From the NCBI GenBank assembly GCA_964480395.1, contig CAYZQB010000007.1, positions 1 to 37,370 on the forward strand: a stretch of 37,370 nucleotides of DNA. Direction: 5' to 3'. Source of the stretch: an uncultured Planctomycetia bacterium. GTDB lineage: Bacteria; Planctomycetota; UBA8742; SKZP01; CAYZQB01. Position 1 is the first letter of the stretch, and each line of letters begins with the position of its first letter. Shown piece after piece: positions 6,746-31,754 of this stretch. The notes beneath the pieces are model-generated. The model was not told the origin of the DNA. It ran no database searches and worked only from the letters and a program-made list of their open reading frames with translations. The position numbers and the translations under genes are program-made.

Positions 6746-7939
6746 TTATAGATTTGCTTCTTTTCTGAGGATTTCAGCCTTGTCAGTTTTTTCCCATGTG
6801 AAATCTTGCTCATTTCGCCCAAAATGTCCATAAGCTGCTGTTTTCGTGTAAATCGGGCGTTTCAACATTAATTGCTGGATAATTGAAGCAGGTCGCAAAT
6901 CAAAGTGTTTATTTACAAGCTTAATAATTTCATCATCTGCGATTTTACCCGTATTAAATGTGTCTATCACGATGCTGACTGGTTGAGCGATTCCGATTGC
7001 ATAGGCAATTTGCAACTCACATTTGTCAGCAAGACCTGCTTTTACAATGTTTTTTACAATGTAACGCGCAAAATACGTTGCACTTCGGTCAACTTTGCTT
7101 GGATCTTTTCCAGAAAAACTCCCCCCACCATGTCTTCCCATTCCGCCGTAGGTGTCAACAATAATTTTCCTACCCGTCAGTCCGCAATCTGCATTCGGTC
7201 CACCAAGTACAAAACGTCCGGTTGGATTGATTAAGTATTCAATGTTTTCTGAAAGGAATTGCTCAGGAATAATCGGCTTAATCACCTTATTTATAAGAAT
7301 TTCCCTCATTTTCGGGTCTAAATCTCCCTTTCCATTATCAAAGCAAACACTTTCATCATGCTGAGTCGACAAAACTACTGATTTCACTCGTTCTGCTTTG
7401 CCATCCTTGTATTTCACGGTAATCTGTCCTTTGCTGTCAGGTCTGAGCCATGGAATTTCGCCATTTTTACGAAGCTCAGCGATTTTCATCATCATTTTAT
7501 GAGACAGCAATGCTGGCAGCGGGAAAAGCTCTGGTGTGTCAATGCAGGCATACCCGAACATCATACCTTGATCACCAGCACCTTGATCTTCATTCTTCTG
7601 TGTCGTTGTGTTAACACCTTGGGATATATCAGGTGATTGCTCGTGAATCCGAATATCCACTTTACAAGTATTCCCGTTGAAACCGAGTTCTTCTCTGTCA
7701 TAACCGATTTCGCAGATAACTTTTCTTGCGATTTCTTCGGTTCGTATTTTTACTTTTGAGGTGATTTCACCTGCGATAAGACAGTAATCGGAGGTAACAA
7801 AAACTTCGCATGCAACTCTTGAATCAGGATCACCAGCAATATATGCATCAAGGATGGCGTCTGCAATTGTATCTGCAACCTTGTCAGGATGTCCTTGCGA
7901 GACGGATTCTGAAGTAAATAAAAAGTTTCCATTATTCAT
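6746..7939 (-). CDS. metK: S-adenosylmethionine synthetase
   Basis: Hallmark motifs FTSESVSQGHPDKVAD, GAGDQGMMFGYA and GGGSFSGKDPSKVDRSA; length 397 aa. Confidence 0.97.
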   Translation of the reverse strand: MNNGNFLFTSESVSQGHPDKVADTIADAILDAYIAGDPDSRVACEVFVTSDYCLIAGEITSKVKIRTEEIARKVICEIGYDREELGFNGNTCKVDIRIHEQSPDISQGVNTTTQKNEDQGAGDQGMMFGYACIDTPELFPLPALLSHKMMMKIAELRKNGEIPWLRPDSKGQITVKYKDGKAERVKSVVLSTQHDESVCFDNGKGDLDPKMREILINKVIKPIIPEQFLSENIEYLINPTGRFVLGGPNADCGLTGRKIIVDTYGGMGRHGGGSFSGKDPSKVDRSATYFARYIVKNIVKAGLADKCELQIAYAIGIAQPVSIVIDTFNTGKIADDEIIKLVNKHFDLRPASIIQQLMLKRPIYTKTAAYGHFGRNEQDFTWEKTDKAEILRKEANL

Positions 7940-7997
7940 TAATCATGCTCCGTTTTACTTTGTTAGGAAAATTACATTAAAGAGGAATTACCTTAAA

Positions 7998-8013
7998 ATG
8001 TAGAAATCTACAT
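7998..8013. promoter_or_regulatory. Perfect palindrome ATGTAGA-AA-TCTACAT in the metK / 8104-ORF divergent intergenic region (candidate operator)
   Basis: 7-bp perfect inverted arms around a 2-nt centre, about 60 nt upstream of the metK start codon. Confidence 0.3.
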
Positions 8014-8103
8014 AAAATACTTATTAATCGTAAAATCAATAAAAATTTGTTTTCAGGATACGTTAGCAGTAATTAAAATCAACTGAAACATACCTAAAAA
8101 TAC

Positions 8104-8721
8104 ATGTTCTGGAGAATGATATTGTCTTTATTCGTTTGTGAAATCAGTATCTGGAAATTTCTGCAGATTAGTATGTTTTTGTTAATGATGCTGCTTTTCG
8201 TTTGGGTTTACGTGAAATTCAGACGCAGTCAACCCAGTATTTACATCAGAAATCTCCCAACACCAGTCCCACCAAAAGATTATTCTATATTACCTTCTGA
8301 AAATCAGGACGAAGCAAGGTTTTTTTGGGAATTTTTAGACAAATTCAAAGAAGATTTCGAGAAAAAAGGACACCCCTTGCAGTATCGCCAACTTATTGAT
8401 TTGCTTCAATATGGACCAATATGGGATTTGAAGACTTTTTCTGCTGAAACACTTAAAGAATCAAAACATTTGAGAAAATATGCATCGGATTCTGTGTTGT
8501 GCAGAGAAATTTTTGAGATTATCATTGAAAATTTAAAGAGCATCAAAACTACTGATGAATCAACTTCTGCATTGAATTCGCTCTTACTTACACTTCCATT
8601 AACACAAGCAGATACAAAGGAAATCATCAGTATTTTTGAACAAGAATCAAAAAGATTTTCTTATGATATTGAAAACCTTATTGTAAAATTAAAGAATAAT
8701 TTATCAAAAATTGATGCTTGA
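8104..8721 (+). CDS. Hypothetical membrane-anchored protein
   Basis: ORF with hydrophobic N-terminal segments (ILSLFVCEISIWKFLQISMFLLMMLLFVWVYV) and a helical soluble remainder. No family is recognised and the start is uncertain. Confidence 0.45.
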   Translation: MFWRMILSLFVCEISIWKFLQISMFLLMMLLFVWVYVKFRRSQPSIYIRNLPTPVPPKDYSILPSENQDEARFFWEFLDKFKEDFEKKGHPLQYRQLIDLLQYGPIWDLKTFSAETLKESKHLRKYASDSVLCREIFEIIIENLKSIKTTDESTSALNSLLLTLPLTQADTKEIISIFEQESKRFSYDIENLIVKLKNNLSKIDA

Positions 8722-8926
8722 TTCTTTTTTGATAAAATAATTAATTTGTATTGAATAATGAAACATTGTATTAAATATAGTAAATGTAAGGAGTATTTTA
8801 AATTTTTTTTCTAAGTAACTTTATATAATCTTAGGATTATTAACTTTGAAAAAATACTTAAAAGATTTCATTTTCAAAGCTAAAATAGCATAAAATAAAT
8901 TACTGATTTTAAAGGAGATGAGGAGT

Positions 8927-10888
8927 ATGAAGAGAACTGCTATTCCCTCGGCGATATGCCTGATTCTAGTTGTCCTTTCAACAACCGCTTTTGCTCAGGG
9001 TAGTCCAGCTGACCCATTCTTTGAAGCGAGTTATGATTTCGGAGAAGTTAACGTAGGAGAAGTTGGGACACTTGATATTATTATGGAAAATGTCGGTGAT
9101 GAAGAACTCAAGGTTACCGAGTTAAATGCAACAGGCGCAAATGCTGATGAATTCACTGTCACTGAAGGCAATGTACCGTTTAATATTGCAGGCGGTGAAA
9201 CCCATAAAATCGTTGTAACGTTTACACCAACCGCTGAAGGTGCAAGAACGGCAACATGGGAATTTGTTAGTAATTCACCTTATTCACCGAATGCAACGAC
9301 ATTGTCCGGTACAGCGATAAAAATTCCAGAACCGACAAAACCAGGTGAATTTTCAACAACTGAAGACATTATAAATTTTGGTGAAGTTCTCATCGGTGAA
9401 CAGGTTGAAAAATCAATTGTTATCACGAATAAAGGCGATGATGACCTTGAAATTACAAAAGCAACAATCGCTGGTGTAAATGCAGGAGAATTCTCAATCG
9501 TTGAAGGTACCGCTCCATTTACGATTGCTGGAGGTATGACTCATGAAGTAAAATTCCTTTTCATACCTACTGATAAAGGAGAGAGAAAAGCTGAAATCGC
9601 TTTTGAACAGGCGAATAATCCGCTTCCGAACATCATTACACTTACAGGTATGTGTTCATTCAATCCACCTGTGATTGATATTGATGCTTTAGACCTTGAT
9701 TTCGGTTCGATTAGAATCGGTCAGATATCAGAAAGAACAATCACAATCCGCAATACTGGTGATGATGATTTGAATGTAACAGCAATTAATATCACTGGTG
9801 TTAATGCTGCAAACTTTGCTGTTGTTGTTGGAAAAGCACCATTCACCGTGAAGAAGAATGAGACACATGAAGTTACTTTTGAGTTTAGACCAACAGTTGC
9901 AGGCACAGCGAATGCACTGGCTGAGATTGTGAACGATTATACAGCAGAACCTGATTTTGTTTCACTCACTGGTATGGGTGAAGCGGTTATTATTGAACCA
10001 CCTGTTGACGATGATGTTGACGATGACGAACCTGGTCCAATAGAAACTCGACCGTCAGACTGGGATGCAGATTTCCGCAGAAATCTGCTTGCAGGTCCTC
10101 TTTCGTTTGCACACATGAATGGTTTGTATGCATTGTCGGGTTATGGCGCGATGGAATGGACAGCAGCGACACCTGCAAAGCATTTCTATACAACATTAAG
10201 CTTAAAAATCGCTACTTTCAATGAATATAACGAACAGCCGGATTTTGATGCTACACTGGCATTCCTTGAAATTATGGGCAGATTCGGAATCGTAGATAAT
10301 TTTGAAGCTGGCTTGAAAATACGACTCGGTGGTTGGAAGGGTACAATTCTCGTTCCCGGACTTCCATCAGATTCAGAAGGTACATTCGGGCTTGGTGATA
10401 TTTTCCTTTCAATGAAATATGCTGCGATCCAAAAAGGTGAATTGCCGATGGAACTCTCAGCACTGCTTACTTTCAAGCTTCCTGTCGGTTCACAGGAAGA
10501 TGCTCTTGGCACAGGTGGTTTTGATACAGCATTAAATATTCTTAGCTCATTTTATTTTACTGAAGGTGATAAACTTGCATTGCACCTGATGCTCGGGTTT
10601 ACATATGCTCTTGATGGTGACCAGATAGATACAAGTGCATTCCTATGGGGTTTCTTAGTCAACTTTGGAATGGGTGCAAGTTATGTTGTTATGGAATCGA
10701 ACGATATGTCAATGGCACTATTGTGGCAGCTCGAATTCTATGACCCGAACCTAAGTACAACTCTCGGTGGGCGCGCAGATATTAAAATGGGAAGTCTGCA
10801 TCTTATGCCTGAATTAGGTTTTACCCTCGGTCTGCATGAATTGTCCGCGGATATGGAGATCTACTTCTCAGTGGGTATTCCTTTCTAA
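8927..10888 (+). CDS. Secreted protein: three tandem Ig-like (choice-of-anchor-D/ASH-like) domains fused to a C-terminal outer-membrane beta-barrel-like domain
   Basis: Signal peptide MKRTAIPSAICLILVVLSTTAFAQG. Three ~100-aa repeats share the pattern FGxVxxGE..........N.GD(D/E)(D/E)L.(V/I)T.....G.NA.EF....G..PF.I..G.THE(V/I).(V/F).F.PT. These are followed by an acidic linker (DDDVDDDEPGP) and a ~270-aa domain with alternating hydrophobic strands, a GLGDIFLSMKY motif and a terminal Phe. ATG 8927 is preferred over 8918 because AGGAG at 8913-8917 is 9 nt from it. Confidence 0.75.
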   Translation: MKRTAIPSAICLILVVLSTTAFAQGSPADPFFEASYDFGEVNVGEVGTLDIIMENVGDEELKVTELNATGANADEFTVTEGNVPFNIAGGETHKIVVTFTPTAEGARTATWEFVSNSPYSPNATTLSGTAIKIPEPTKPGEFSTTEDIINFGEVLIGEQVEKSIVITNKGDDDLEITKATIAGVNAGEFSIVEGTAPFTIAGGMTHEVKFLFIPTDKGERKAEIAFEQANNPLPNIITLTGMCSFNPPVIDIDALDLDFGSIRIGQISERTITIRNTGDDDLNVTAINITGVNAANFAVVVGKAPFTVKKNETHEVTFEFRPTVAGTANALAEIVNDYTAEPDFVSLTGMGEAVIIEPPVDDDVDDDEPGPIETRPSDWDADFRRNLLAGPLSFAHMNGLYALSGYGAMEWTAATPAKHFYTTLSLKIATFNEYNEQPDFDATLAFLEIMGRFGIVDNFEAGLKIRLGGWKGTILVPGLPSDSEGTFGLGDIFLSMKYAAIQKGELPMELSALLTFKLPVGSQEDALGTGGFDTALNILSSFYFTEGDKLALHLMLGFTYALDGDQIDTSAFLWGFLVNFGMGASYVVMESNDMSMALLWQLEFYDPNLSTTLGGRADIKMGSLHLMPELGFTLGLHELSADMEIYFSVGIPF

Positions 10889-21654: not shown

Positions 21655-23757
21655 ATGTCGATTCAGGATTTGAGGAATGTCGCATTTGTTGGACATGGTA
21701 ACTCAGGAAAAACTGCAACTGTGGAAGGATTGCTCTACACTGCGAAAGCTATTTCACGTTGGGGAAGAAGTGATGACAAGACTTCAATACTCGATTATCT
21801 TGATGACGAAAAAGATAAAGCTTATTCTATAAATCTTAAGATCGGTCGCCTGAAGCACAACAAGGTTGACATAAATGTAATTGATACTCCTGGCAAGCCG
21901 GATTTCCTTGGTGAAGCGGTTTCAGCATTGTATGCGTGCGATACAGCGGTTATTACAATCGCAGCTAATGCGGGTATTCAGGTTAATACTCGAAATGCTT
22001 GGAAAATCTCGGAAAAAGCTAATGTTGCAAAGGCAATTCTCATTACAAAAACCGATGCTGAAAACATCAGAGTCGAGGATGTGATTAAGCAGATTCAGAA
22101 TACCTTTGGCGACAAGTGCATCCCAATAACGTACCCAATCGGTGAAAGTGTGGATATGGTGGATGTAATCGATGTAATCAATCTACCTGAAAACGCGCCT
22201 GATGCTGCTGTGTCCTACAGAGAAACACTTGTTGAGAGATCAGTTGAAGCAGACGATGAAATAATGGAAAAATTCCTTGAAGAAATGGAAATCGATGAAG
22301 CAACTTTCAACAAGGTTTTGAAAAAAGCAATCACAATGGGTGTTGTTGTTCCGATTCTTTTTGTCGGAATGACAAAAGAAAAAGGTTATGACATTCTGCT
22401 TGATAAAATTGTCGAGCTTTTTCCGTCACCAGCAGATAATCTAGCGAAATTCAGCATATATCCTCTAGAACCAATGAAAGAATATATTAAAGCCAACGAA
22501 CTGGATATATTCAGCACTGTCATCACTGAAAAAACTGACATTCAAAAGCCAGAGCCAGAAACTATCGAATCTGCTGATGGTGATTTCCTTGCACAGGTCT
22601 TCAAATCAACAATTGACCCACAAACCGGAATACGAAACAGTTTTATCAGAGTTGTTCGCGGTGAAATGACAAGTGATGGTGCAATATACAACTGTTCAAC
22701 CGAAAAAATTGAAAAAGTAACGGGTTTCCTACATATCAGCGGTAAAGATACAAAAAGAATTGATAAAGCTGTTGCAGGCGATATTGTGGTTATCTCAAAA
22801 ATGGATTCCTTACATACTTGCACAACGATAACCGGTACGAACCATAAGATGCTGGAAGGATTTCCCTTTCCTCTTCCAACTGCTTCATTTGCTGTTCATC
22901 CGAAAACTCAAAAAGACGTTGATAAAGTCGGTGAAGCAATATCAAGAATTCGCGCGGAAGACCCAACTTTCGTTGACAGGATAGATCCAGTTACAAAAGA
23001 GCGAGTTATTGTCGGTCTCACTGACCTTCACTTGAATATTATGCTTGACCGCATGAAAAAACGCTCAAAAGTTGAAGTCGAGACAAGCTTACCCATAATT
23101 CCGTATAAAGAAACTATAACCGGTAAAGCTGCTGACAGCTATCGGCATAAGAAGCAGTCGGGTGGTGCTGGCGAATTCGGCGAGGTTCATATAGAAATCA
23201 GTCCGAGTGAACGTGGTGCCGGCTTTGAGTTCGAAAACGCAATTTTCGGTGGTTCAATTGACAGAGTTTTCATTCCTTCAGTTGAAAAAGGATTGAAAGA
23301 TCAGATGGCAAAAGGAGTTATTGTCGGTTTTCCTGTTGTTGATGTTCATGCACGACTATATGACGGGAAGACACATCCTGTTGACAGCAAGGACAGGGCA
23401 TTTCAGGTTGCTGCTCGCGAATGCTTCAAGAAGATTTTTCCGCATGCAAAACCAAAGCTTCTAGAGCCATATATGGAAATGGAAGTTCATATTCCAACTG
23501 AAAAAGTCGGCGACATTCTTGCGGACATCTCCGGTGCTCGCAGAGGGCGCGTTAACGATCAGATTACTGATGGTGATTTTGCAACAATTATGGCAGTTGC
23601 ACCACTTTCGGAGATTCAAACTTACAGCCAGAGTCTTCAGTCGATGACAGGCGGTGAAGGAACATTTACGATGAAATTTAGCAACTATGAAATAGTGCCT
23701 GAGAATATAACACAACAGATAATTGCAAAATATGCAAAAAAAGTTGAAGAAAAATAA
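21655..23757 (+). CDS. Elongation factor G paralog (EF-G-like translational GTPase)
   Basis: G1 is GHGNSGKT, G3 is DTPGKPDF and G4 is TKTD. The domain IV tip context is YDGKTHPVDSKDRAFQVAA. About 700 aa. Start ATG 21655 has GGAGG 5 nt upstream; the ORF is open from GTG 21628. Confidence 0.88.
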   Translation: MSIQDLRNVAFVGHGNSGKTATVEGLLYTAKAISRWGRSDDKTSILDYLDDEKDKAYSINLKIGRLKHNKVDINVIDTPGKPDFLGEAVSALYACDTAVITIAANAGIQVNTRNAWKISEKANVAKAILITKTDAENIRVEDVIKQIQNTFGDKCIPITYPIGESVDMVDVIDVINLPENAPDAAVSYRETLVERSVEADDEIMEKFLEEMEIDEATFNKVLKKAITMGVVVPILFVGMTKEKGYDILLDKIVELFPSPADNLAKFSIYPLEPMKEYIKANELDIFSTVITEKTDIQKPEPETIESADGDFLAQVFKSTIDPQTGIRNSFIRVVRGEMTSDGAIYNCSTEKIEKVTGFLHISGKDTKRIDKAVAGDIVVISKMDSLHTCTTITGTNHKMLEGFPFPLPTASFAVHPKTQKDVDKVGEAISRIRAEDPTFVDRIDPVTKERVIVGLTDLHLNIMLDRMKKRSKVEVETSLPIIPYKETITGKAADSYRHKKQSGGAGEFGEVHIEISPSERGAGFEFENAIFGGSIDRVFIPSVEKGLKDQMAKGVIVGFPVVDVHARLYDGKTHPVDSKDRAFQVAARECFKKIFPHAKPKLLEPYMEMEVHIPTEKVGDILADISGARRGRVNDQITDGDFATIMAVAPLSEIQTYSQSLQSMTGGEGTFTMKFSNYEIVPENITQQIIAKYAKKVEEK

Positions 23758-23861: not shown

Positions 23862-25910
23862 ATGGATAAAAAATTATTACAATTTATGACAGCAATTACG
23901 CTACGGAGAATCAGTCAGCTCAAGTATCGCAGTGTGATAAATGCACCAGATACAAATGATAATAATATAATCAGTATTTACGAAATAGCCGGTGAATTAT
24001 GTGAGGATTTTAAGGATGTTATCCTGCAGGAAGCACGGGAACTCGCTCAAACCAGTGCTGAAGACAAAAATCTTTCACCTGAAAAAATTGCTTTGATGCT
24101 CGCTGAGGCAATTCCACTTTATGCTGGCTACAACGACATAAAGGATAATTTTCCTGACAATTCGGAGATTACTAGAAAAGTACTGAGTATCAAAGTCGGT
24201 CATCCTGCTGATAAATCCGACTATTATTTCGCAATCATTCGGGATAATGCGAATAAAGACCCATTTGTACCCGTCGAAGAACGTATGTTGACGAAGCCAC
24301 TTGAATCAGATCTGAGTGATTTGTACGAGAAAGTTTATATTGATGCGAAAGCATTGATAAATCAGCTTAATATTTCGAATTTTAATCAAATTTTGACTCA
24401 ACTCATAGAAATGCTTATGCCAATTCCGATTAACTCCGGAACTGATACTTTTCTCTCGATGGGGAGTTATTTCCGTGCTGTTCTAATTATCGGTTGCTCG
24501 ATTTTAAACGAGATAAAATCGCATGGACCCGGAGTGATGCAATCCGATGAAAGTAATTTATGGGCGTTAACCAAGATTGAAATCGTAAAACTTGGCATTA
24601 ATGGAAACTTGCCGGGTAGTATTATAGAAGAATCCAGGGAATTTCAGGTTTTAAGGAAAGAATTATTCGATGCGATGAAAACAGATACCCTGATTATTGA
24701 AAACCACGAACTTAAATCAACACTACCGAATCATATCTACCTGCTTCACAATAAATCTTTTAGTGAAGAATTGACTCGGAAAATTAAACCTGCAGTAACA
24801 CATTGGTTTGCTCAAAATCGTGCTGCTACATGCGTTGCAAGCGTAGAATTAAACAAAAATGACCTTTCTGATACTAAAAAATTTGAAGAATGCCTGAAAA
24901 AAGTGGATTTGAAAGCACATCATGAAATTGTGCACAAAATTGCCTTAAATTCTTTTTCTCAACCCGTGAAAGAAAAATCTAATGCGGAAAATCTTAAGAA
25001 AACGAGTAAAATTAACCCGCCAGAACTTGTTCAAAAAGCAGCATCAGAAAGCAGAATACCGATCATGGGTATGCTTCTAATTAAACAGGAAACTCAGCCG
25101 GAGTTAATCATTAACCGTGGTGCTGGTTTGCCTTCAATTCTTTTCGCAAATGACAGATTCACTCATTTCTGGGAAAAAATTGTTCCTGATATCGCTGGGA
25201 AATACCGTTTTTCAACAAGTATGATACATCTTGAAAAGGGTGATGTATTAATTAAGAATAAATTGTCGAGACTTCTAAGTTTCACAAGGGAATTTTTCAA
25301 TCTATATTATGATTTTGGAATGCCTGTGAGCATCAGCGCAAGCATCACAATGAATCAAGAAGGAGATGATGGCAAGAACCTGTCAATGACACATCAAGGT
25401 TATGTGGATGCAAAAAACGCAGTTCGCCCAAAAATTAGGACAGATAACCAAAATATCAATCCTTTCAGCGGTTTCAAGGGCAGCATGCTTTCTCTTTGTT
25501 TATTTGAGAATACGTCAAAAAACACAATTCCGAGTGAAGACCTGAAAATATTCTTCGAAATGATGCGTCAAATTGGATTACTTGCGGGTTATAGAGTCAA
25601 TAATGAAGATATTGTCCCACTTTCTAGTCAGACCAAACCTGAAATATTCAATATAGTACACTCAATTACGAATAAAATAAAGAATGATAAAGGTTTCAAC
25701 TGGCAATCAGTTTTGTATTATATGCTAACAGAGAAATTTAGTGATGAAGCTGATGCAAAAACTATAAATCTCAACGAACAAGCTGTAAACGACCTTTTAC
25801 ATACCTTAAGATATAATCGATGGCAGAACATTCAAAGACTGATGTCAAAACCTGCTCATCTTTATCTGAATATTTTGGCAAAATGGTTGAAAGTATTAGA
25901 ATTAACTTAA
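23862..25910 (+). CDS. Large hypothetical protein in the Cas10 (type III large subunit) position; possibly a highly degenerate Cas10 lacking HD, zinc-finger and GGDD motifs
   Basis: It lies immediately 5' of a csm2-csm3-csm4-csm5-like series, with its stop 18 nt before the next start. Length is 682 aa. The only Cas10-like trace I see is MIHLEKGDVLI (aa 454-464) followed about 30 aa later by PVSISASITM. This resembles the Palm2 pattern hhY-GGDD-hhh ... T-h-S-A-G-h with GGDD degraded to EKGD. There is no N-terminal HD and no CxxC pairs. The C-terminal ~130 aa look helical. Confidence 0.4.
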   Translation: MDKKLLQFMTAITLRRISQLKYRSVINAPDTNDNNIISIYEIAGELCEDFKDVILQEARELAQTSAEDKNLSPEKIALMLAEAIPLYAGYNDIKDNFPDNSEITRKVLSIKVGHPADKSDYYFAIIRDNANKDPFVPVEERMLTKPLESDLSDLYEKVYIDAKALINQLNISNFNQILTQLIEMLMPIPINSGTDTFLSMGSYFRAVLIIGCSILNEIKSHGPGVMQSDESNLWALTKIEIVKLGINGNLPGSIIEESREFQVLRKELFDAMKTDTLIIENHELKSTLPNHIYLLHNKSFSEELTRKIKPAVTHWFAQNRAATCVASVELNKNDLSDTKKFEECLKKVDLKAHHEIVHKIALNSFSQPVKEKSNAENLKKTSKINPPELVQKAASESRIPIMGMLLIKQETQPELIINRGAGLPSILFANDRFTHFWEKIVPDIAGKYRFSTSMIHLEKGDVLIKNKLSRLLSFTREFFNLYYDFGMPVSISASITMNQEGDDGKNLSMTHQGYVDAKNAVRPKIRTDNQNINPFSGFKGSMLSLCLFENTSKNTIPSEDLKIFFEMMRQIGLLAGYRVNNEDIVPLSSQTKPEIFNIVHSITNKIKNDKGFNWQSVLYYMLTEKFSDEADAKTINLNEQAVNDLLHTLRYNRWQNIQRLMSKPAHLYLNILAKWLKVLELT

Positions 25911-25927
25911 CGAAACAAGGAGTATAT

Positions 25928-26854
25928 ATGTTTGCAGAAGAAATTAACGAAGATATGAAGGAAAGAAAAGATACTTCAGCTGAGGAGATAAAAGAAGAAC
26001 CTGAAACTATTGACGAAAATAAACCTGTAAAATCAGCGAAAAATACTGAAACTAATGCTGAAGACAAAGTTGAAGCATTAAATGATAAAGCTGATGCTGA
26101 TGTTGTTAAGGACGAAAAGCATGATGAAAAACCTGTTGACAACTCAAAATCAGTAAAATCAGAAAAAATTACTAAGGATAAAAAGGATAAATTACTAGTT
26201 GAGACAGAGATACAAAAAGAATTACAGGATATTAAAACCTCGAAAACTCAAAAGGATTCTATTAAAATTAAGGATTCTGCTCAGGAAGAATCTAAAGAAT
26301 CGATCCTTACTAAAAAGGAAATTAAACTTGATGAACCGCGTAAAAGCAAGACGGAATCAGGTAGGTTCGAGAAAAGAATAAGTGAGCGAAAAAGAATAGA
26401 CAGACGCGGACTTCGTCAGGGAATCAGACGTGAAGAATATCGTAATAAAAGCTATGATGCACTTCCTGCACGAGATCAGAACATTAAAGAGATAATAAGC
26501 TCTGGAAATCCCGATTTAATCAACAGAACCGCTGAAGATTACGCAAAAACATGGGGTGACAGACCACCGTGGATTAAAAACCGTTTTTCTTCATTCCAGA
26601 TACGACCGATTATTTCAAAAATCTTGAAAATCAGAAAAAAAACCTTCGCATACGAAAACGTAAACGAGCTGAAACTTCTGAAACCATTGTTAGCATATAT
26701 TGCACGCAGGTATCACGACGACGATCTTTATGAATTTTCGCGAATAATAAGATATGCGATTGATGATGTCGGAGACGACCCGCAAAAGTTCAAATATTTT
26801 TGCTCGTTCTTTGATTCTCTGCTTCTGTATTTCAGGGCTAACGGTGGTAAATAA
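25928..26854 (+). CDS. csm2: Csm2-type Cas11 small subunit with a ~180-aa Lys/Glu/Asp-rich N-terminal extension
   Basis: The C-terminal ~125 aa carry Csm2 family hallmarks as I recall them: SSFQIRPIISKILKI, ELKLLKPLLAYIARR and KFKYFCSFFDSLLLYFRANG. Start 25928 is preceded by AAGGAG (25917-25922). The N-terminal part is low-complexity charged sequence ending in an Arg-rich patch (RFEKRISERKRIDRRGLRQGIRREEYR). Confidence 0.75.
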   Translation: MFAEEINEDMKERKDTSAEEIKEEPETIDENKPVKSAKNTETNAEDKVEALNDKADADVVKDEKHDEKPVDNSKSVKSEKITKDKKDKLLVETEIQKELQDIKTSKTQKDSIKIKDSAQEESKESILTKKEIKLDEPRKSKTESGRFEKRISERKRIDRRGLRQGIRREEYRNKSYDALPARDQNIKEIISSGNPDLINRTAEDYAKTWGDRPPWIKNRFSSFQIRPIISKILKIRKKTFAYENVNELKLLKPLLAYIARRYHDDDLYEFSRIIRYAIDDVGDDPQKFKYFCSFFDSLLLYFRANGGK

Positions 26855-26885
26855 CATTAAATCCAAAACATAAGTGAGATTGATT

Positions 26886-27644
26886 ATGCAATTAGACAAA
26901 CGAATTTTCCTAAAAGGTTACATTATTGCTGAAACAGGTTTGTTAATCGGTGGAACTGACACAGGACAAGGACTGAGCGGAGCAGACAAGGTTGTTTTAC
27001 GCAATCCTATCGATGAAAGACCGTTTATCCCTGGTTCGTCCATAAAAGGCAAAATGAGAATGCTATTGGATCAGCTTGCTGGGATTTATTCTGAAACCGA
27101 TGAGAAAAAAACTGCCAGTGAGATTCACAAAAAGATCGCACGATTGCTTGGAAAAATCAGCGATGATAGAGCAGAAAGTCCCAGAATGCTTATTATCCGG
27201 GATGCTAATCTTGTGAACCACAAGTATCTTGAAGCACAAGAGCATCTTGATCTGCCTTACACTGAACTAAAAACCGAAGTTTCAATCGATAGAATCACCG
27301 CGAAAGCCACGCCACATTGCTATGAAAGAGTGCCTTCAGGAGCAGTATTTTGTTTCGAGATGATTTTAAGCACTTACGATTTCGGCAAATCCAAGGACGA
27401 TGCAAAACAATATGTCGAGTTGATATTAACTGCATTATTGCTTCTGCAGGACGATTATCTGGGAGCAAACGGCTCGCGCGGTTACGGTAAAGTAAGATTT
27501 CACGTGAATGATATAAAAATGCGCGACAAAGAAGGTTATATCAAGAATGCTGAGCCAATTGATTTCACTGAAGTCAACGTACCAGCTGAGCTGAAACTCG
27601 AACAACCGGTTCTTGATGAAATTAATTCGCAGATTTCTAAGTAA
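26886..27644 (+). CDS. csm3: Csm3-family RAMP (Cas7 backbone subunit)
   Basis: The N-terminal stretch is GLLIGGTDTGQGLSGADKVVLRNPIDERPFIPGSSIKGKMRMLL, which holds the G-rich loop, the catalytic-Asp context and the IPGSS-KG-R motif. The C-terminal motif is LGANGSRGYGKVRF. Confidence 0.88.
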   Translation: MQLDKRIFLKGYIIAETGLLIGGTDTGQGLSGADKVVLRNPIDERPFIPGSSIKGKMRMLLDQLAGIYSETDEKKTASEIHKKIARLLGKISDDRAESPRMLIIRDANLVNHKYLEAQEHLDLPYTELKTEVSIDRITAKATPHCYERVPSGAVFCFEMILSTYDFGKSKDDAKQYVELILTALLLLQDDYLGANGSRGYGKVRFHVNDIKMRDKEGYIKNAEPIDFTEVNVPAELKLEQPVLDEINSQISK

Positions 27645-27662
27645 AAACAATGAGGTTGACCG

Positions 27663-28517
27663 GTGAGTGATTACGATTTTATCGAATATAAATTGAGTTT
27701 TAAACAATCATTAAATCTGCCAATTTCTTCGTCAAACGAGATTTATCCTGTCTTATATTCCGACTGGTTGTATAAAGTGTTTGAAAGCGGATGGAAAAGA
27801 TTGTTTAGTGAGGATTTTCCGTACAATGACATCCGAATCACTTCCGGATTTCCATACTGCAAGGATTATTCACATGTTCTTTTCTATATACCGGAAAAAT
27901 TAGAATATTTGTCCGTTGCACGTGATGCACTTGCTGCTGGTGAGATTATACTTGGCTCAAATTGCTGGCGTTTTTTCTCGCGCCCTAGGGCAGAATTCAA
28001 CAAAGATACTGCACGCAGGGAAAAACGCTTTACAACAGTTGAAATATATTTCAAGAAAAATTCTGGAATCTGGTTTGGGTCGCGATTTACTAACTCGACA
28101 AGTCAGAAGAAATTCGAGAGTGTAATTCGGTTTATCGGTGATGAGGGCATCGGCGGCGGTCGTTCAGTAGGTTATGGCGGGTTTGTGCTTTCAAGCATCG
28201 AGGAAATATCAGTTTACAAAGAGGAACACTCTCTAATGCTTTCACTTTCACGCTTCAAAATACCCGAATCTTCAATTTCAGAAGACCTTTTTTGCGAAAT
28301 ACGACCGATGACAATTGGATTGAAATCTACAAAAACTGGAAAAAAGATTAATTTCTTGGTATTTGGCGAAGGCTCACTTATGAATGTGAGTGATAAAGTT
28401 GATTATTTATATGCTGGTGAATTTATCGGAGAAGACAGCAAAAAAGCAAAAGATTACTCGAATCGTGCAGCATTGCTTTTTGCTATGCCAGTACCAGCGA
28501 AATTGCAGACTTACTGA
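27663..28517 (+). CDS. csm4: Csm4-family RAMP (Cas5-like subunit)
   Basis: N-terminal YKLSFKQSLNLP...VLYSDWLYKVFESGW matches the Csm4 pattern (beta-strand, then sD-T-L-F-S-A-L-like helix). The C-terminal glycine-rich loop is IGDEGIGGGRSVGYGGF. GTG start has GAGG 8 nt upstream. Confidence 0.75.
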   Translation: MSDYDFIEYKLSFKQSLNLPISSSNEIYPVLYSDWLYKVFESGWKRLFSEDFPYNDIRITSGFPYCKDYSHVLFYIPEKLEYLSVARDALAAGEIILGSNCWRFFSRPRAEFNKDTARREKRFTTVEIYFKKNSGIWFGSRFTNSTSQKKFESVIRFIGDEGIGGGRSVGYGGFVLSSIEEISVYKEEHSLMLSLSRFKIPESSISEDLFCEIRPMTIGLKSTKTGKKINFLVFGEGSLMNVSDKVDYLYAGEFIGEDSKKAKDYSNRAALLFAMPVPAKLQTY

Positions 28518-28533
28518 CATTCTTTTCATGTTT

Positions 28534-28564
28534 GTCAATAGGTCAATCGATTTTGTTCCTATTG
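28534..28564 (+). promoter_or_regulatory. Copy 3 of the bipartite element (GTCAATAGGTC-N10-GTTCCTATTG) inside the csm4-csm5 intergenic gap
   Basis: Exact 11-mer at 28534-28544. CAATAGG (28536-28542) and CCTATTG (28558-28564) are perfect 7-bp inverted repeats. The spacer is 2 nt shorter than in the other copies. The element ends 60 nt upstream of the csm5 ATG. Confidence 0.5.
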
Positions 28565-28623
28565 CTTTGTTGAGGGAAAAAACAGGTTGCCGATGCAGAA
28601 TTTAGATTAATTAAGGTAATGTT

Positions 28624-29820
28624 ATGTTTACATATACAAAGAAATTGAAAAGTATAATCGAAGCGGAAGTTGAGGTACTAACACCTTTGCATATCAGCAG
28701 CGGGAAGAGTTTTCAACCTTCTGATGTTGTGCGTGATCCAGAATCATTTTTTGTTATTAACGAACGAAAACTTATTGAGAAATTTGCCGATAACGATGAA
28801 GTATTGAAAGAGCTTGAGAATCCACGCCTGATTTTGCAAAGATTCTTCGAAGAGCATGAAGATTTGTATGTTGATGATTATATGCTTTACGAACTTGAAG
28901 CACGGACGCAGAAAACAGTGCGTTATGGCATGCCATTAAACAGTTTCGCTCGCATAGGAGCTGAGTTTACGCCCTACATTCCTGGCTCATCTCTGAAAGG
29001 AGCTCTTCTTTCAGGTATTTTGTGGGATTTGAACCAGATAGCAAGAGGAGATAGCGAGAAATGGACCAGCGATATTTTTGTGTCTGCTCTTAAGAGGTGT
29101 TTTCATCACGGTAATGACATAAATATTTACGATAATGAATTTATAAGTGCAATTTTAGGTAAAGATAGCACAAATTTTGCTCAAAAAGCGTTCCGTATTC
29201 TGGATGCTAGTTTGAAACCTGAAGATATTGGTGTTTTCGCAAATGCAATGTTTCATTGTGATAAACCAAACGGCAGCGGATATCATTGGAGTGGAATTCA
29301 GAAACTGCCAACGAATGATTTTACGAAGATAAGCTATGAATTAATTGAAGCAATAAAGCCTGGAACAAAATTCAATGTTAAGATAGTTGTTGACAATGTT
29401 GCTCTTAAAAATGTTAAATTCGGGGAATTAAGCTCGAAACTTAGGCATGGTAAATCCTACGAATTTGGTGATATTGCAAGTGCCATATTCGAGTTAGCTT
29501 ATAACACTCTTTATTATGAAAAAGAATTTTATAGCAAGACAGGTCATCGAAAACTTATTAATGCATCAGAAGATTTTTATAATTATGCAAACTCAATTGC
29601 AGAAGATCCGGAAAGCAACGAGATTATGCTCCGTCTTGGATGGGGTATGAACTATCACGGAGTGACTGGTTTTTTATGGCAGGACGATATTGTGAAAAAA
29701 CTGAGATTACCTATGCAAAATTATCATGAATATCCTTACCCGAAAAGCAGGCGGATTGTATTTGATGGTCAGAACGAAGTAGGTACACCAGGCTGGGTTA
29801 AAATGCGCATCAATTTTTAA
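28624..29820 (+). CDS. csm5: Csm5-family RAMP (Cas7-like capping subunit)
   Basis: VEVLTPLHISSGKSFQPSDVV near the N-terminus, YIPGSSLKGALLSG, and RLGWGMNYHGVTG near the C-terminus; 398 aa. Confidence 0.8.
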   Translation: MFTYTKKLKSIIEAEVEVLTPLHISSGKSFQPSDVVRDPESFFVINERKLIEKFADNDEVLKELENPRLILQRFFEEHEDLYVDDYMLYELEARTQKTVRYGMPLNSFARIGAEFTPYIPGSSLKGALLSGILWDLNQIARGDSEKWTSDIFVSALKRCFHHGNDINIYDNEFISAILGKDSTNFAQKAFRILDASLKPEDIGVFANAMFHCDKPNGSGYHWSGIQKLPTNDFTKISYELIEAIKPGTKFNVKIVVDNVALKNVKFGELSSKLRHGKSYEFGDIASAIFELAYNTLYYEKEFYSKTGHRKLINASEDFYNYANSIAEDPESNEIMLRLGWGMNYHGVTGFLWQDDIVKKLRLPMQNYHEYPYPKSRRIVFDGQNEVGTPGWVKMRINF

Positions 29821-30590: not shown

Positions 30591-31754
30591 TCATTTTTTC
30601 AGAGTTTCGTAAATTGCAACGTATGAGTCATGTCGTCGAGCATCAATAATACCTGCTTCAAGAGCATCAACTATTTTGCATCCTGGTTCAACACCTGTGT
30701 GCGAACAGTTGTTAAAACGGCATTTACCGATGTAAGGCATCATTTCTGGATAGTATGCAATTAAATCAGCTTTCAGAAGCGCATGCATCCCAAATGAACG
30801 AATCCCTGGAGTATCGACAACAGAACCACCGAAATCCAGCAAATGCATTTGAACTGAAGTTGTTGTATGTTTTCCTTTACCGGTTTTTTTACTAACTTCG
30901 TTGATTTTAATTCCTAGACCGGGTTGAATCGCATTAAGCAGACTCGATTTTCCGACACCAGACTGTCCGGTAAGTACAGAATTCTTGTCCTTTAGGATAT
31001 GCCTGAAATTTTCAATTCCCTTTGCATTTTTTACACTTAATAGCAGAACTTTATAACCAAGTTTACCGTAAAATTCAGCAATTTCCTGTGGTTCATTATT
31101 CTCAGAAGTTAGGTCGATTTTGTTGATGCAGATGACACAATCGATATTGCTGCGTTCCGCCGTTATCACAACACGGTCAATAAAACGAATTTTAAATGGC
31201 GGCTCTGCTGCTGCTACAACTACTACAAGCTGGTCAATATTGGCTGCAATCACTTGCTCTTGCTCGCTCTTAAAATGTGCAGCACGCGATAAAAGCGATT
31301 TACGCTCTTTGATTCCAATAAGAATACATTGTTTTTCTTGTGTAACGTGCTTAATAAGCTCAACTGCAACAACATCGCCAACTGCTACCGGATGCTTAAA
31401 TTTTCTTTCACCTATGAGCAGTCTTCGCGGTAAAAAACATATTAACGCGTCATTTCCAGAAAAAGCTTTGAAATGCCGACGATGTACAGAAGTAACGGTA
31501 CCTTTCAAAGTGTTATCGGGAAATTCGTCCTCAGATTTGTAAAATTCAACCGGTCTGTCGGACTCAGCATGTTCAAGCTCTTTTGCGAACTCTGTTACAA
31601 GTCTTTCCTCTTCGTCGTTTAACTCATCCTCTTCTTCGTCAATTACTGCATCTTCATTATCAGCATTGTTTTCATACGCCGCAATTTCGTTTTTCCGCCT
31701 GCTGCGAGCGGATTTACTGCGCCCTTTTCGTCCCGGATTTCGTTGTGCTGGCAT
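30591..31754 (-). CDS. rsgA: Ribosome small-subunit-dependent GTPase A (RsgA/YjeQ) with ~85-aa charged N-terminal extension
   Basis: Circularly permuted GTPase order NKID (G4), GQSGVGKSSLLNAI (G1), DTPG (G3). C-terminal zinc knuckle CRFNNCSHTGVEPGC. Confidence 0.92.
   Translation of the reverse strand: MPAQRNPGRKGRSKSARSRRKNEIAAYENNADNEDAVIDEEEDELNDEEERLVTEFAKELEHAESDRPVEFYKSEDEFPDNTLKGTVTSVHRRHFKAFSGNDALICFLPRRLLIGERKFKHPVAVGDVVAVELIKHVTQEKQCILIGIKERKSLLSRAAHFKSEQEQVIAANIDQLVVVVAAAEPPFKIRFIDRVVITAERSNIDCVICINKIDLTSENNEPQEIAEFYGKLGYKVLLLSVKNAKGIENFRHILKDKNSVLTGQSGVGKSSLLNAIQPGLGIKINEVSKKTGKGKHTTTSVQMHLLDFGGSVVDTPGIRSFGMHALLKADLIAYYPEMMPYIGKCRFNNCSHTGVEPGCKIVDALEAGIIDARRHDSYVAIYETLKK

What the first reader, a model, noticed from the sequence alone, without database searches (positions are those of the whole stretch)
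25928..26854. Cas11/Csm2 small subunit fused to a long K/E/D-rich disordered arm with an Arg-rich patch
Seen: the Csm2-like helical domain occupies only about aa 185-308. The preceding ~180 aa are low-complexity charged sequence (..KDEKHDEKPVDNSKSVKSEKITKDKKDKLL..) ending in RFEKRISERKRIDRRGLRQGIRREEYR.

Established: stand-alone Csm2 proteins are about 120-150 aa.

Inference: because several Cas11 copies line the major filament, such an arm would decorate the complex with multiple charged tails. These could be an RNA or ribosome tethering surface or could drive condensates.

Caveat: other proteins in this window (ABC ATPase tail, RsgA N-terminus) also have charged extensions, so part of this may be a lineage habit.
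Basis: partly seen in the sequence, partly recalled or inferred. Interest (0 to 1): 0.6.

Follow-up and report, generated by a model that had tools for sequence, protein, structure and literature searches.

The report
Csm2 with a long disordered arm
The small subunit (Csm2/Cas11) of a stripped-down type III-A CRISPR effector in a Planctomycetota genome carries a real, conserved N-terminal disordered arm of about 180 residues ending in an arginine-rich patch. In every case I could place in context, such long arms sit beside a Cas10 that has lost its signalling motif.

Summary
ORF 25928-26854 encodes a 308-aa protein. Residues about 183-308 are a bona fide Csm2 helical bundle by Pfam, NCBIfam, PADLOC and Foldseek. 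Residues 1-163 are predicted disordered.

The far-upstream ATG is the real start:
- It has an AAGGAG Shine-Dalgarno site 5 nt upstream.
- No in-frame ATG, GTG or TTG lies between aa 10 and aa 233.
- All six orthologues with DNA keep the same start context.

The arm defines a rare clade of about nine sequences. The Arg patch is as conserved as the domain (91% versus 92% identity). The distal arm drifts (43%) but stays disordered, acidic and in frame from 35% to 74% GC.

It is not merely a lineage habit. Other Planctomycetota Csm2 proteins, including those from low-GC genomes, lack it. A second Planctomycetota family has the same acidic-arm, basic-patch, Csm2 architecture.

Short basic tails are common on Csm2. 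All 7 long-tail loci with a readable Cas10 lack canonical GGDD, and all 13 short- or no-tail loci have it. That is only 3-4 independent contrasts.

My best reading is an auxiliary RNA-binding tail plus an acidic spacer. The condensate and ribosome ideas gain no support. The scan has noted Arg/Gly tails on Csm2 before, on other DNA.

The parts
25917..25922 (+). Shine-Dalgarno site (AAGGAG), 5 nt before the csm2 start codon
   Evidence: GGAG-type sites sit 6-9 nt before the equivalent ATG in all six orthologues with DNA.
25928..26854 (+). csm2 (cas11) gene, 308 aa: disordered arm plus Csm2 domain
25928..26362 (+). Distal arm, aa 1-145: K/E/D-rich, well-mixed polyampholyte, slightly acidic, fast-evolving
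   Evidence: AF2 pLDDT below 50. 43% identity and 21 gap columns against the L010 orthologue. Distal net charge -5 to -16 in most orthologues. Kappa 0.12.
26363..26473 (+). Arg-rich proximal segment, aa 146-182 (GRFEKRISERKRIDRRGLRQGIRREEYR...), running into helix 1
   Evidence: 91% identity against L010, the same as the domain, with dN/dS 0.07. Distant orthologues carry RGG or poly-R stretches at this position.
26474..26851 (+). Csm2 helical bundle, aa 183-308
   Evidence: Pfam PF03750 5e-12. AF2 helices 183-304. Foldseek hits to the Csm2 chains 9ash_C, 8x5d_C and 6xn3_C.
23862..25910 (+). Upstream gene in the Cas10 position (682 aa) with no HD, no GGDD and no Pfam/NCBIfam/PADLOC match
26874..27644 (+). 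csm3 (Cas7), with the catalytic-loop Asp retained (GADKVVLRNP)
   Evidence: TIGR02582 3.5e-52. Sequence.
27663..28517 (+). csm4 (Cas5)
   Evidence: TIGR01903 4e-17.
28624..29820 (+). csm5
   Evidence: TIGR01899 4.7e-18.

Best explanation
This is a genuine Csm2/Cas11 small subunit translated from ATG 25928. Its helical bundle is preceded by an intrinsically disordered N-terminal arm of about 180 aa, made of two functionally different parts.

1. Proximal part. The 30-40 residues next to helix 1 are an arginine-rich segment under purifying selection as strong as that on the domain. I infer that it is an auxiliary, sequence-nonspecific RNA-binding tail. Csm2 copies form the minor filament that holds the target RNA strand, so each complex would carry two or more such tails next to the target-RNA channel. 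They would raise capture or retention of transcripts.

2. Distal part. The distal ~145 residues are a rapidly evolving, well-mixed, slightly acidic polyampholyte. Only its bulk properties are kept: disorder, acidity and an open frame. I infer that it acts as an entropic spacer or solubiliser, and possibly as an intramolecular competitor that keeps the basic patch off non-target nucleic acid.

The elaboration goes together with a Cas10 that has lost HD and GGDD. It may therefore compensate, in an RNA-only effector, for lost Cas10 outputs.

Shown: the gene, the start, the fold, the disorder, the conservation pattern and the distribution. Inferred: RNA binding, the spacer or autoinhibitor role, and the compensation.
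For: Start and translation:
- SD site, no internal start, and a conserved start context.
- The frame is kept through indels and from 35 to 74% GC.

Fold and disorder:
-.
- The GC-rich orthologue shows the same split: residues 1-126 have pLDDT below 50 and the domain is above 90.

Selection pattern:
- Identity to L010 is 43% for the distal arm, 91% for the Arg patch and 92% for the domain.

The Arg-rich character persists where the sequence does not:
- RGG or poly-R stretches in G001, G002, P0009 and P0011.
- RRKKRRR patches in the f28 family.
- P0009 keeps the basic part but almost no distal arm.

Basic N-terminal tails recur across the Csm2 tree, with at least 3 origins, and one Csm2 carries an N-terminal cold-shock domain instead.

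From the literature:
- An N-terminal His tag on S. epidermidis Csm2 pulls down the whole complex, so the N-terminus is exposed (PMC9762709).
- Csm2 forms the minor filament and is thought to bind the target strand (PMC6468305).

Association with degenerate Cas10:
- 7 of 7 long-tail loci lack canonical GGDD, against 0 of 13 short- or no-tail loci.
- The tails fall in at least 3 separate Csm3 clades.
Against:
- AF2 gives no structure for the patch, so its position relative to the RNA channel is inferred.
- The arm as a whole is near neutral (net -1), so it is not a simple polycation.
- This genome puts charged low-complexity segments on 1-4% of its proteins, including RsgA, PNPase and trigger factor. 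Part of the distal arm may be neutral.
- The link to dead Cas10 rests on 3-4 independent contrasts (sign test p=0.25). It could instead reflect long vertical residence of degenerate systems rather than function.
Confidence: 0.45

Rival explanations
1. The arm is a tolerated low-complexity expansion. It grew by slippage on an exposed N-terminus in a lineage, and in long-resident degenerate systems, prone to such extensions. It has no specific function beyond solubility.
For: - 95 of 2250 crude ORFs have a segment of 60 aa or more that is at least 50% K/E/D. 19 of 1787 have a 140-aa charged terminus.
- The distal arm is 43% identical to its nearest orthologue, with indels.
- Arm length varies from about 77 to 227 aa.
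- There are tandem peptide repeats in P0007 and G001 and 9-nt micro-repeats here.
Against: - The Arg patch is conserved like the domain.
- The architecture is kept across a 35-74% GC shift and in a second Planctomycetota family.
- Ordinary Csm2 proteins in other Planctomycetota, including low-GC genomes, lack arms.
- No other Csm subunit in the operon has such an arm.
Confidence: 0.25
2. The arm is a recruitment tether for host proteins such as RNases of the degradosome type. This would be analogous to the disordered region of S. epidermidis Csm5 that binds PNPase and RNase R, and it would replace the collateral activities lost with Cas10.
For: - There is precedent for an IDR-mediated nuclease partnership in type III-A (PMC9762709).
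- The acidic distal arm could pair with basic tails. This genome's PNPase fragment has an Arg/Asp-rich C-terminal tail.
- Long arms co-occur with degenerate Cas10.
- The extreme N-terminus shows a weak recurring M-x-A-E-x-N-E pattern.
Against: - No conserved linear motif is robustly detectable in the distal arm.
- No partner is conserved in the neighbourhood.
- The idea is entirely untested.
Confidence: 0.2
3. The arms drive condensate formation or tether the complex to ribosomes. These are the first reader's alternative readings.
For: - Each complex would carry several charged tails.
- In this window the block lies downstream of an EF-G paralogue and near rsgA.
Against: - The charges are well mixed (kappa 0.07-0.15, no higher than shuffled) and aromatic content is low in the AT-rich orthologues. 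This predicts a soluble, expanded coil.
- The EF-G neighbourhood is not conserved in G001 or in the f28 loci, where Cas6 precedes the block.
Confidence: 0.06
4. The start is misannotated: the true protein is a normal-size Csm2 and the upstream 180 codons are untranslated.
For: None found. It is the default expectation from family size only.
Against: - There is no ATG, GTG or TTG in frame between aa 10 and aa 233.
- A strong SD precedes 25928.
- Six orthologues share the start context and keep the frame through indels.
- The Arg patch is under purifying selection at the protein level.
Confidence: 0.02

Closest known systems
Canonical type III-A Csm2/Cas11 (PF03750; e.g. L. lactis 9ash_C, M. tuberculosis 8x5d_C, S. 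epidermidis 6nbu)
   Same: - The helical-bundle domain.
- The gene position between the cas10-slot gene and csm3.
- The family HMM scores above its cut-off.
   Different: Solved Csm2 chains are 121-150 aa. This protein is 308 aa, with a 180-aa disordered N-terminal arm that is the longest among the 150 best family representatives.
Short Arg/Gly-rich N-terminal tails on ordinary Csm2 proteins (e.g. P0024, P0032, P0115, P0238), and the ~70-aa tail noted by this scan in Bryobacterales (e1-4008673)
   Same: A basic, disordered N-terminal segment lies directly before helix 1. It recurs in several Csm2 lineages.
   Different: - Those tails are 25-60 aa and lack the long acidic polyampholyte distal arm.
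- The short ones occur beside intact Cas10.
Csm2 of Planctomycetota family f28 (G083, G204, G220, G279, G385)
   Same: - The same three-part architecture: an acidic disordered arm, an RRKKRRR patch, and the Csm2 domain (229-266 aa).
- Cas10 is very diverged.
- No cas1, cas2 or CARF gene lies nearby.
   Different: - The Csm3 clade is different.
- The arm is Ala/Pro/Gly-rich, in 70-74% GC genomes.
- Cas6 is retained next to the operon.
Disordered region of S. epidermidis Csm5 that binds and stimulates PNPase and RNase R (PMC9762709)
   Same: A charged IDR on a type III-A effector subunit with a proposed accessory role.
   Different: It is on a different subunit, is much shorter, has a basic-only character, and is supported by experiment.
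Domain fusions to Cas11: the cold-shock-domain-Csm2 fusion (P0117) and the I-E3 Cas11-PD-(D/E)xK nuclease fusion (PMC12669027)
   Same: An extra module is attached to the small subunit. In the cold-shock case it is an N-terminal nucleic-acid-binding module.
   Different: Those are folded domains. Here the addition is disordered.

Membership tests
Csm2 / Cas11 of type III-A (PF03750, TIGR01870) | The family HMM matches above its curated cut-off | tested here: met
   PF03750 47 bits (cut-off 24.8), E=5e-12. TIGR01870 39.2 bits (cut-off 30.6). PADLOC Csm2 2.7e-13.
Csm2 / Cas11 of type III-A (PF03750, TIGR01870) | All-helical bundle fold like that of solved Csm2 | tested here: met
   AF2 places helices at 183-304 with pLDDT 80-92. 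The top 28 Foldseek PDB hits are all Csm2 chains, with probability 0.75-1.0.
Csm2 / Cas11 of type III-A (PF03750, TIGR01870) | Encoded between the large-subunit gene and csm3-csm4-csm5 | tested here: met
Csm2 / Cas11 of type III-A (PF03750, TIGR01870) | Assembles as the minor filament and contacts target RNA | not testable with these tools
   Needs reconstitution or cryo-EM. The family role is taken from PMC6468305.
Canonical type III-A (Csm) CRISPR-Cas system | Cas10 with a GGDD cyclase palm, usually also with HD | tested here: not met
   The 682-aa upstream protein has no GGDD-like motif, no HD motif and no family hit.
Canonical type III-A (Csm) CRISPR-Cas system | A CRISPR array and a Cas6-type processing enzyme in the genome | tested here: inconclusive
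   The 83%-complete assembly has no array by k-mer scan and no PF01881, PF10040 or PF01867 hit. Arrays are often left unassembled.
Intrinsically disordered region | Low predicted order and low hydropathy, with bulk properties conserved rather than sequence | tested here: met
   pLDDT is below 50 for residues 2-163 here and 1-126 in G002. All nine orthologues fall on the disordered side of the Uversky plot.
Arginine-rich / RGG-type RNA-binding tail | An Arg-rich disordered segment | tested here: met
   7-14 Arg in the proximal 45 residues across orthologues, and RGG runs in the GC-rich ones.
Arginine-rich / RGG-type RNA-binding tail | Demonstrated RNA binding | not testable with these tools
   Needs EMSA or anisotropy assays with and without the patch.

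The most novel reading that the evidence does not exclude
Long disordered, basic-patch-bearing tails on Cas11/Csm2 are a convergent adaptation of type III-A effectors whose Cas10 has lost cyclase or HD output. The tails would take over part of the lost function, either by tethering target transcripts or by recruiting host RNases. This would define a recognisable class of RNA-only, non-signalling Csm complexes that are often array-less or adaptation-less and sit in housekeeping contexts.
Probability: 0.2. Interest if true: 0.7.

Novelty: new variant of a known kind. Interest (0 to 1): 0.5.

Why it matters
Cas11 small subunits are treated as compact helical spacers of the minor filament. I found no paper describing disordered tails on Csm2 in three full-text searches. 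One paper explicitly leaves the role of the 13 unstructured N-terminal residues of S. epidermidis Csm2 open (PMC6468305).

This locus shows the extreme form of a recurrent feature. It also provides a testable correlation: long tails accompany Cas10 proteins without GGDD. If the correlation holds, tail length would be a cheap sequence marker for non-signalling type III-A derivatives. It would also point to how such stripped-down effectors remain useful to the cell. If it does not hold, this is an ordinary Csm2 with a lineage-typical low-complexity extension.

Tried and rejected
- Internal start giving a normal-size Csm2. Rejected: there is no start codon between aa 10 and aa 233.
- Hidden domain in the arm. 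Pfam, NCBIfam and PADLOC find only Csm2.
- Tandem-repeat origin of this arm. Only two 9-nt micro-repeats were found.
- More orthologues.
  - The metagenome scan gave two fragments.
  - The genome scan gave only G001 and G002.
  - The profile search of the 5.8-billion-protein set added nothing new, because low-complexity words flooded the candidate list.
- Literature on Csm2/Cas11 disordered tails. Three searches found nothing specific.
- CRISPR array in the genome. Only whole-unit ~95-nt tandem repeats were found, not repeat-spacer arrays.
- Filing the system under III-G, III-H or III-I. The gene content differs, because here Csm2-5 are separate and III-A-like (PMC12669027).
- Statistical proof of the tail versus dead-Cas10 link. 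Only 3 independent pairs were available, with p=0.25.

Full report
**1. What is at the coordinates**

The window is contig C7 of a 3.2-Mb Planctomycetota MAG (83% complete, 38.7% GC). Five co-directional genes occupy 23862-29820:
- a 682-aa protein in the Cas10 position with no family match
- the finding's ORF
- Csm3 (TIGR02582, 3.5e-52)
- Csm4 (TIGR01903, 4e-17)
- Csm5 (TIGR01899, 4.7e-18)

The finding's ORF runs from 25928 to 26854 and encodes 308 aa.

**2. The start codon**

ATG 25928 is preceded by AAGGAG with a 5-nt spacer. It lies 17 nt after the stop of the upstream gene. The two upstream in-frame ATGs (25820 and 25883) lie inside that gene and have no SD.

Downstream, the only in-frame ATG/GTG/TTG codons are at aa 10, 233 and 254. 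A normal-size Csm2 therefore cannot be made from a canonical internal start.

All six orthologues for which I obtained DNA have a GGAG-type site 6-9 nt before the equivalent far-upstream ATG. Four are AT-rich and two are 68-74% GC. The frame stays open through many indels.

**3. Domain and arm**

Csm2 domain:
- Pfam Csm2_III-A matches aa 217-307 (5e-12). NCBIfam and PADLOC agree.
- AlphaFold2 with a 7-sequence alignment gives helices at 183-304 with pLDDT 80-92. Residues 2-163 have no secondary structure and pLDDT below 50.
- The top 28 Foldseek PDB hits are all Csm2 chains from Csm complexes.

Arm:
- It has a charged-residue fraction of 0.51 and a net charge of -1.
- Its hydropathy lies far on the disordered side of the Uversky boundary.
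- Its charges are well mixed (kappa 0.12, not above shuffled).
- A second model, for the 68%-GC orthologue from G002, shows the same split: residues 1-126 are disordered and the domain has pLDDT above 90.

Size:
- Solved Csm2 chains are 121-150 aa.

**4. How unusual the arm is within the family**

I searched 1.84 billion representatives with a profile of the domain. Six hits scored above 150 bits, and every full-length one carries a 60-160-aa N-terminal extension. The scores then fall to 82 bits, where ordinary 125-160-aa Csm2 proteins begin.

Among the 150 best representatives, the length before helix 1 has a median of 20 aa and a 95th percentile of 84 aa. The maximum, 182 aa, is this protein. 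On a domain tree the window's clade is a well-supported group of 6 on a long stem (98). About nine distinct sequences are known in total.

**5. Conservation pattern**

| Region (against L010, the nearest orthologue with DNA) | Identity | Other measures |
|---|---|---|
| Distal arm | 43% | 21 gap columns |
| Arg-rich segment | 91% | dN/dS 0.07 |
| Domain | 92% | dN/dS 0.02 |

These figures are. dS is saturated, so the ratios are rough.

In distant orthologues the arm sequence is unrecognisable, but its character persists. The N-terminal part is acidic or polar, with net charge -5 to -16 in most. Directly before the domain lies an Arg-rich stretch:
- RRRGRRGGGRRG...GGGRR in G002
- RKRRRRRRGKGG...(RGD)n in G001
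- poly-R/RGG in P0009
- RRRGRRRGRDRGER in P0011

P0009 keeps the basic part with almost no distal arm. The basic segment is therefore the constant element and the distal arm the variable one.

**6. Lineage habit or not**

This genome does like charged low-complexity segments:
- 95 of 2250 crude ORFs have a window of 60 aa or more that is at least 50% K/E/D. The Csm2 ranks 18th.
- 19 of 1787 ORFs have a 140-aa charged terminus.
- These include trigger factor (N-terminal acidic) and a PNPase fragment with an Arg/Asp-rich C-terminal tail.
- Many of the others are secreted coiled-coil proteins rather than IDRs.

I then searched 400 Planctomycetota genomes with PF03750 and found 22 further genomes with Csm2. 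Those in families f37, f92, f9 and f52 have ordinary open frames of 135-206 aa without long charged arms. Several come from 36-41% GC genomes. Composition or lineage alone therefore does not produce the arm.

Family f28 is the exception: 7 of its 8 genomes have a Csm2 match, and the five I read out are 229-266 aa. Each has an Ala/Pro/Glu-rich acidic arm (net -9 to -17), an RRRKKRRHKK or GRRKKRRRGRGRGG patch, and then the domain. This is the same architecture in a different Csm3 clade.

**7. A correlation that emerged**

Short basic tails of 25-60 aa, Arg/Gly-rich, are scattered over the Csm2 tree with at least 3 origins. One Csm2 carries an N-terminal cold-shock domain instead.

I placed as many proteins in genomic context as the tools allowed.

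Long-tail loci (7 of 7 lack a canonical x-G-G-D-D motif):
- The window has no GGDD, no HD and no family hit.
- L017 (89-aa tail, 19 Arg) has no GGDD and no HD.
- L016 (about 40-aa tail, 9 Arg) has HD but no GGDD.
- The f28 loci L049-L052 have Cas10 homologues so diverged that two hit canonical Cas10 at only about 40 bits and two not at all. They carry GGED or GGDE variants, or nothing.
- None has cas1, cas2 or a CARF/SAVED gene within 7-9 kb.

Short- or no-tail loci (13 of 13 have the motif):
- L018-L022 and eight Planctomycetota loci all have [YF]xGGDD.
- Most have HD, and most have cas1/cas2 or CARF/SAVED genes nearby.

On a Csm3 tree the long-tail loci fall into at least 3 separately supported groups, with GGDD-intact loci interleaved. 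Phylogenetically independent pairs give 3 of 3 in the same direction, which cannot reach significance (p=0.25).

I therefore report this as a suggestive association, not a result. An alternative cause would be that degenerate systems are old vertical residents that have had time to accumulate lineage-typical extensions.

**8. Mechanism**

Established points:
- Csm2 copies form the minor filament and are thought to bind the target strand.
- An N-terminal His tag on S. epidermidis Csm2 pulls down the whole complex (PMC9762709). The N-terminus is therefore solvent-exposed, and an extension there should be tolerated.

My inference is as follows. The conserved Arg-rich segment is a non-specific RNA-binding tail placed beside the target-RNA channel, in two or more copies per complex. 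The distal polyampholyte is a spacer or solubiliser, and possibly an intramolecular competitor. Csm3 keeps its catalytic-loop Asp while the Cas10-slot protein has no catalytic motifs. The complex can then probably only bind and cut RNA, and extra RNA affinity would matter more.

Rivals:
- The arm is a neutral expansion.
- The arm recruits host RNases, by analogy with the Csm5 IDR (PMC9762709).
- The arm forms condensates or tethers the complex to ribosomes.

The last rival gains no support. The charge patterning predicts a soluble coil. The EF-G neighbourhood is absent in G001 and in f28.

**9. Comparison with the known, and novelty**

The protein is a member of the Csm2 family by every sequence and fold criterion tested. 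The system fails the Cas10 criteria of canonical III-A. [quoted passage not shown]

Reported Cas11 additions are folded domains, such as the I-E3 nuclease fusion. I found no paper on disordered Csm2 tails.

The scan itself has noted Arg/Gly tails of about 66-70 aa on Csm2 in other genomes, one in a 'stripped-down' III-A of Bryobacterales. Those are unchecked AI notes, but they are consistent with what I saw independently.

My verdict is a new variant of a known kind. It is of moderate interest in itself, and of higher interest if the link to non-signalling effectors holds.

**10. Limits**

- The assemblies are fragmented. G001 lacks csm3 next to csm2, and its csm5 is on another contig.
- ORF starts in 70% GC genomes were chosen by eye.
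- The context sample is small and partly within one phylum.

Noticed in passing
window 2266, 21566, 28534; whole genome: The motif GTCAATAGG occurs 80 times in the genome against about 24 expected. In the window it sits 60-90 nt upstream of gene starts, including the EF-G paralogue and csm5. It may be a shared promoter or regulator site.
   Followed up: partly
own genome C5:1-330, C1:21194-21380 and 22490-22690, C50:17214-17440, C75:6396-6970: Tandem arrays of whole ~95-96-nt units rich in small palindromes, some containing GTCAATAGGTC. The units are identical throughout, so these are not CRISPR repeat-spacer arrays.
   Followed up: partly
own genome (G000), G001, G002: No Cas1 (PF01867) or Cas6 (PF01881) was found in G000, and no Cas6 (PF10040) was found in any of the three genomes of the window's order. 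f28 genomes keep Cas6 next to the operon. The assemblies are 54-83% complete.
   Followed up: partly
L007 (G001) 7464-9054: In G001 the arm-bearing csm2 is followed by a convergent gene resembling a formylglycine-generating enzyme instead of csm3. A csm5 orthologue lies on another contig, and no csm3 was found. This is either a split operon or a misassembly.
   Followed up: partly
L049-L052 (f28 genomes G220, G204, G083, G279): Within one family the Cas10-slot protein ranges from about 660 aa with a GGED or GGDE variant to forms with no detectable Cas10 similarity or motif. One of these is only a 413-aa open frame. This looks like stepwise Cas10 decay.
   Followed up: partly
L053 (G004:C47) 9398-10030: A Csm2-like protein (197 aa) has an (RPD)n repeat tail. 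It lies next to an unassigned 795-aa ORF, and no Csm3, Csm4 or Csm5 hit lies within 9 kb. It may belong to a different effector variant.
   Followed up: no
proteins P0117 and P0078: P0117 is a fusion of a cold-shock domain (PF00313, 1e-14) to Csm2. P0078 (259 aa) appears to have two tandem Csm2-like halves.
   Followed up: partly
L016 9517-10326: The Csm3 of this locus, which has a long-tail Csm2 and a Cas10 without GGDD, has Glu where the catalytic-loop Asp normally sits (GLEFPVVRDP). Its close relative L023 keeps Asp.
   Followed up: no
own genome C218:56-1175 and C60:3644-5330; window 30591-31754: A PNPase fragment has an Arg/Asp/Asn-rich and then Lys/Pro-rich C-terminal tail. Trigger factor has an ~85-aa acidic N-terminal extension. 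RsgA has a basic-then-acidic N-terminus. Several RNA- or ribosome-linked proteins of this organism thus carry charged tails.
   Followed up: no
first ~10 residues of arm-bearing Csm2 proteins (window 25928-25957 and orthologues): The extreme N-terminus shows a weak recurring acidic pattern: MFAEEINE, MLPAENE, MPADLPADNE, MFANDAENE, MNENETHE and MTDAENP. It may be a short linear motif or just composition.
   Followed up: no
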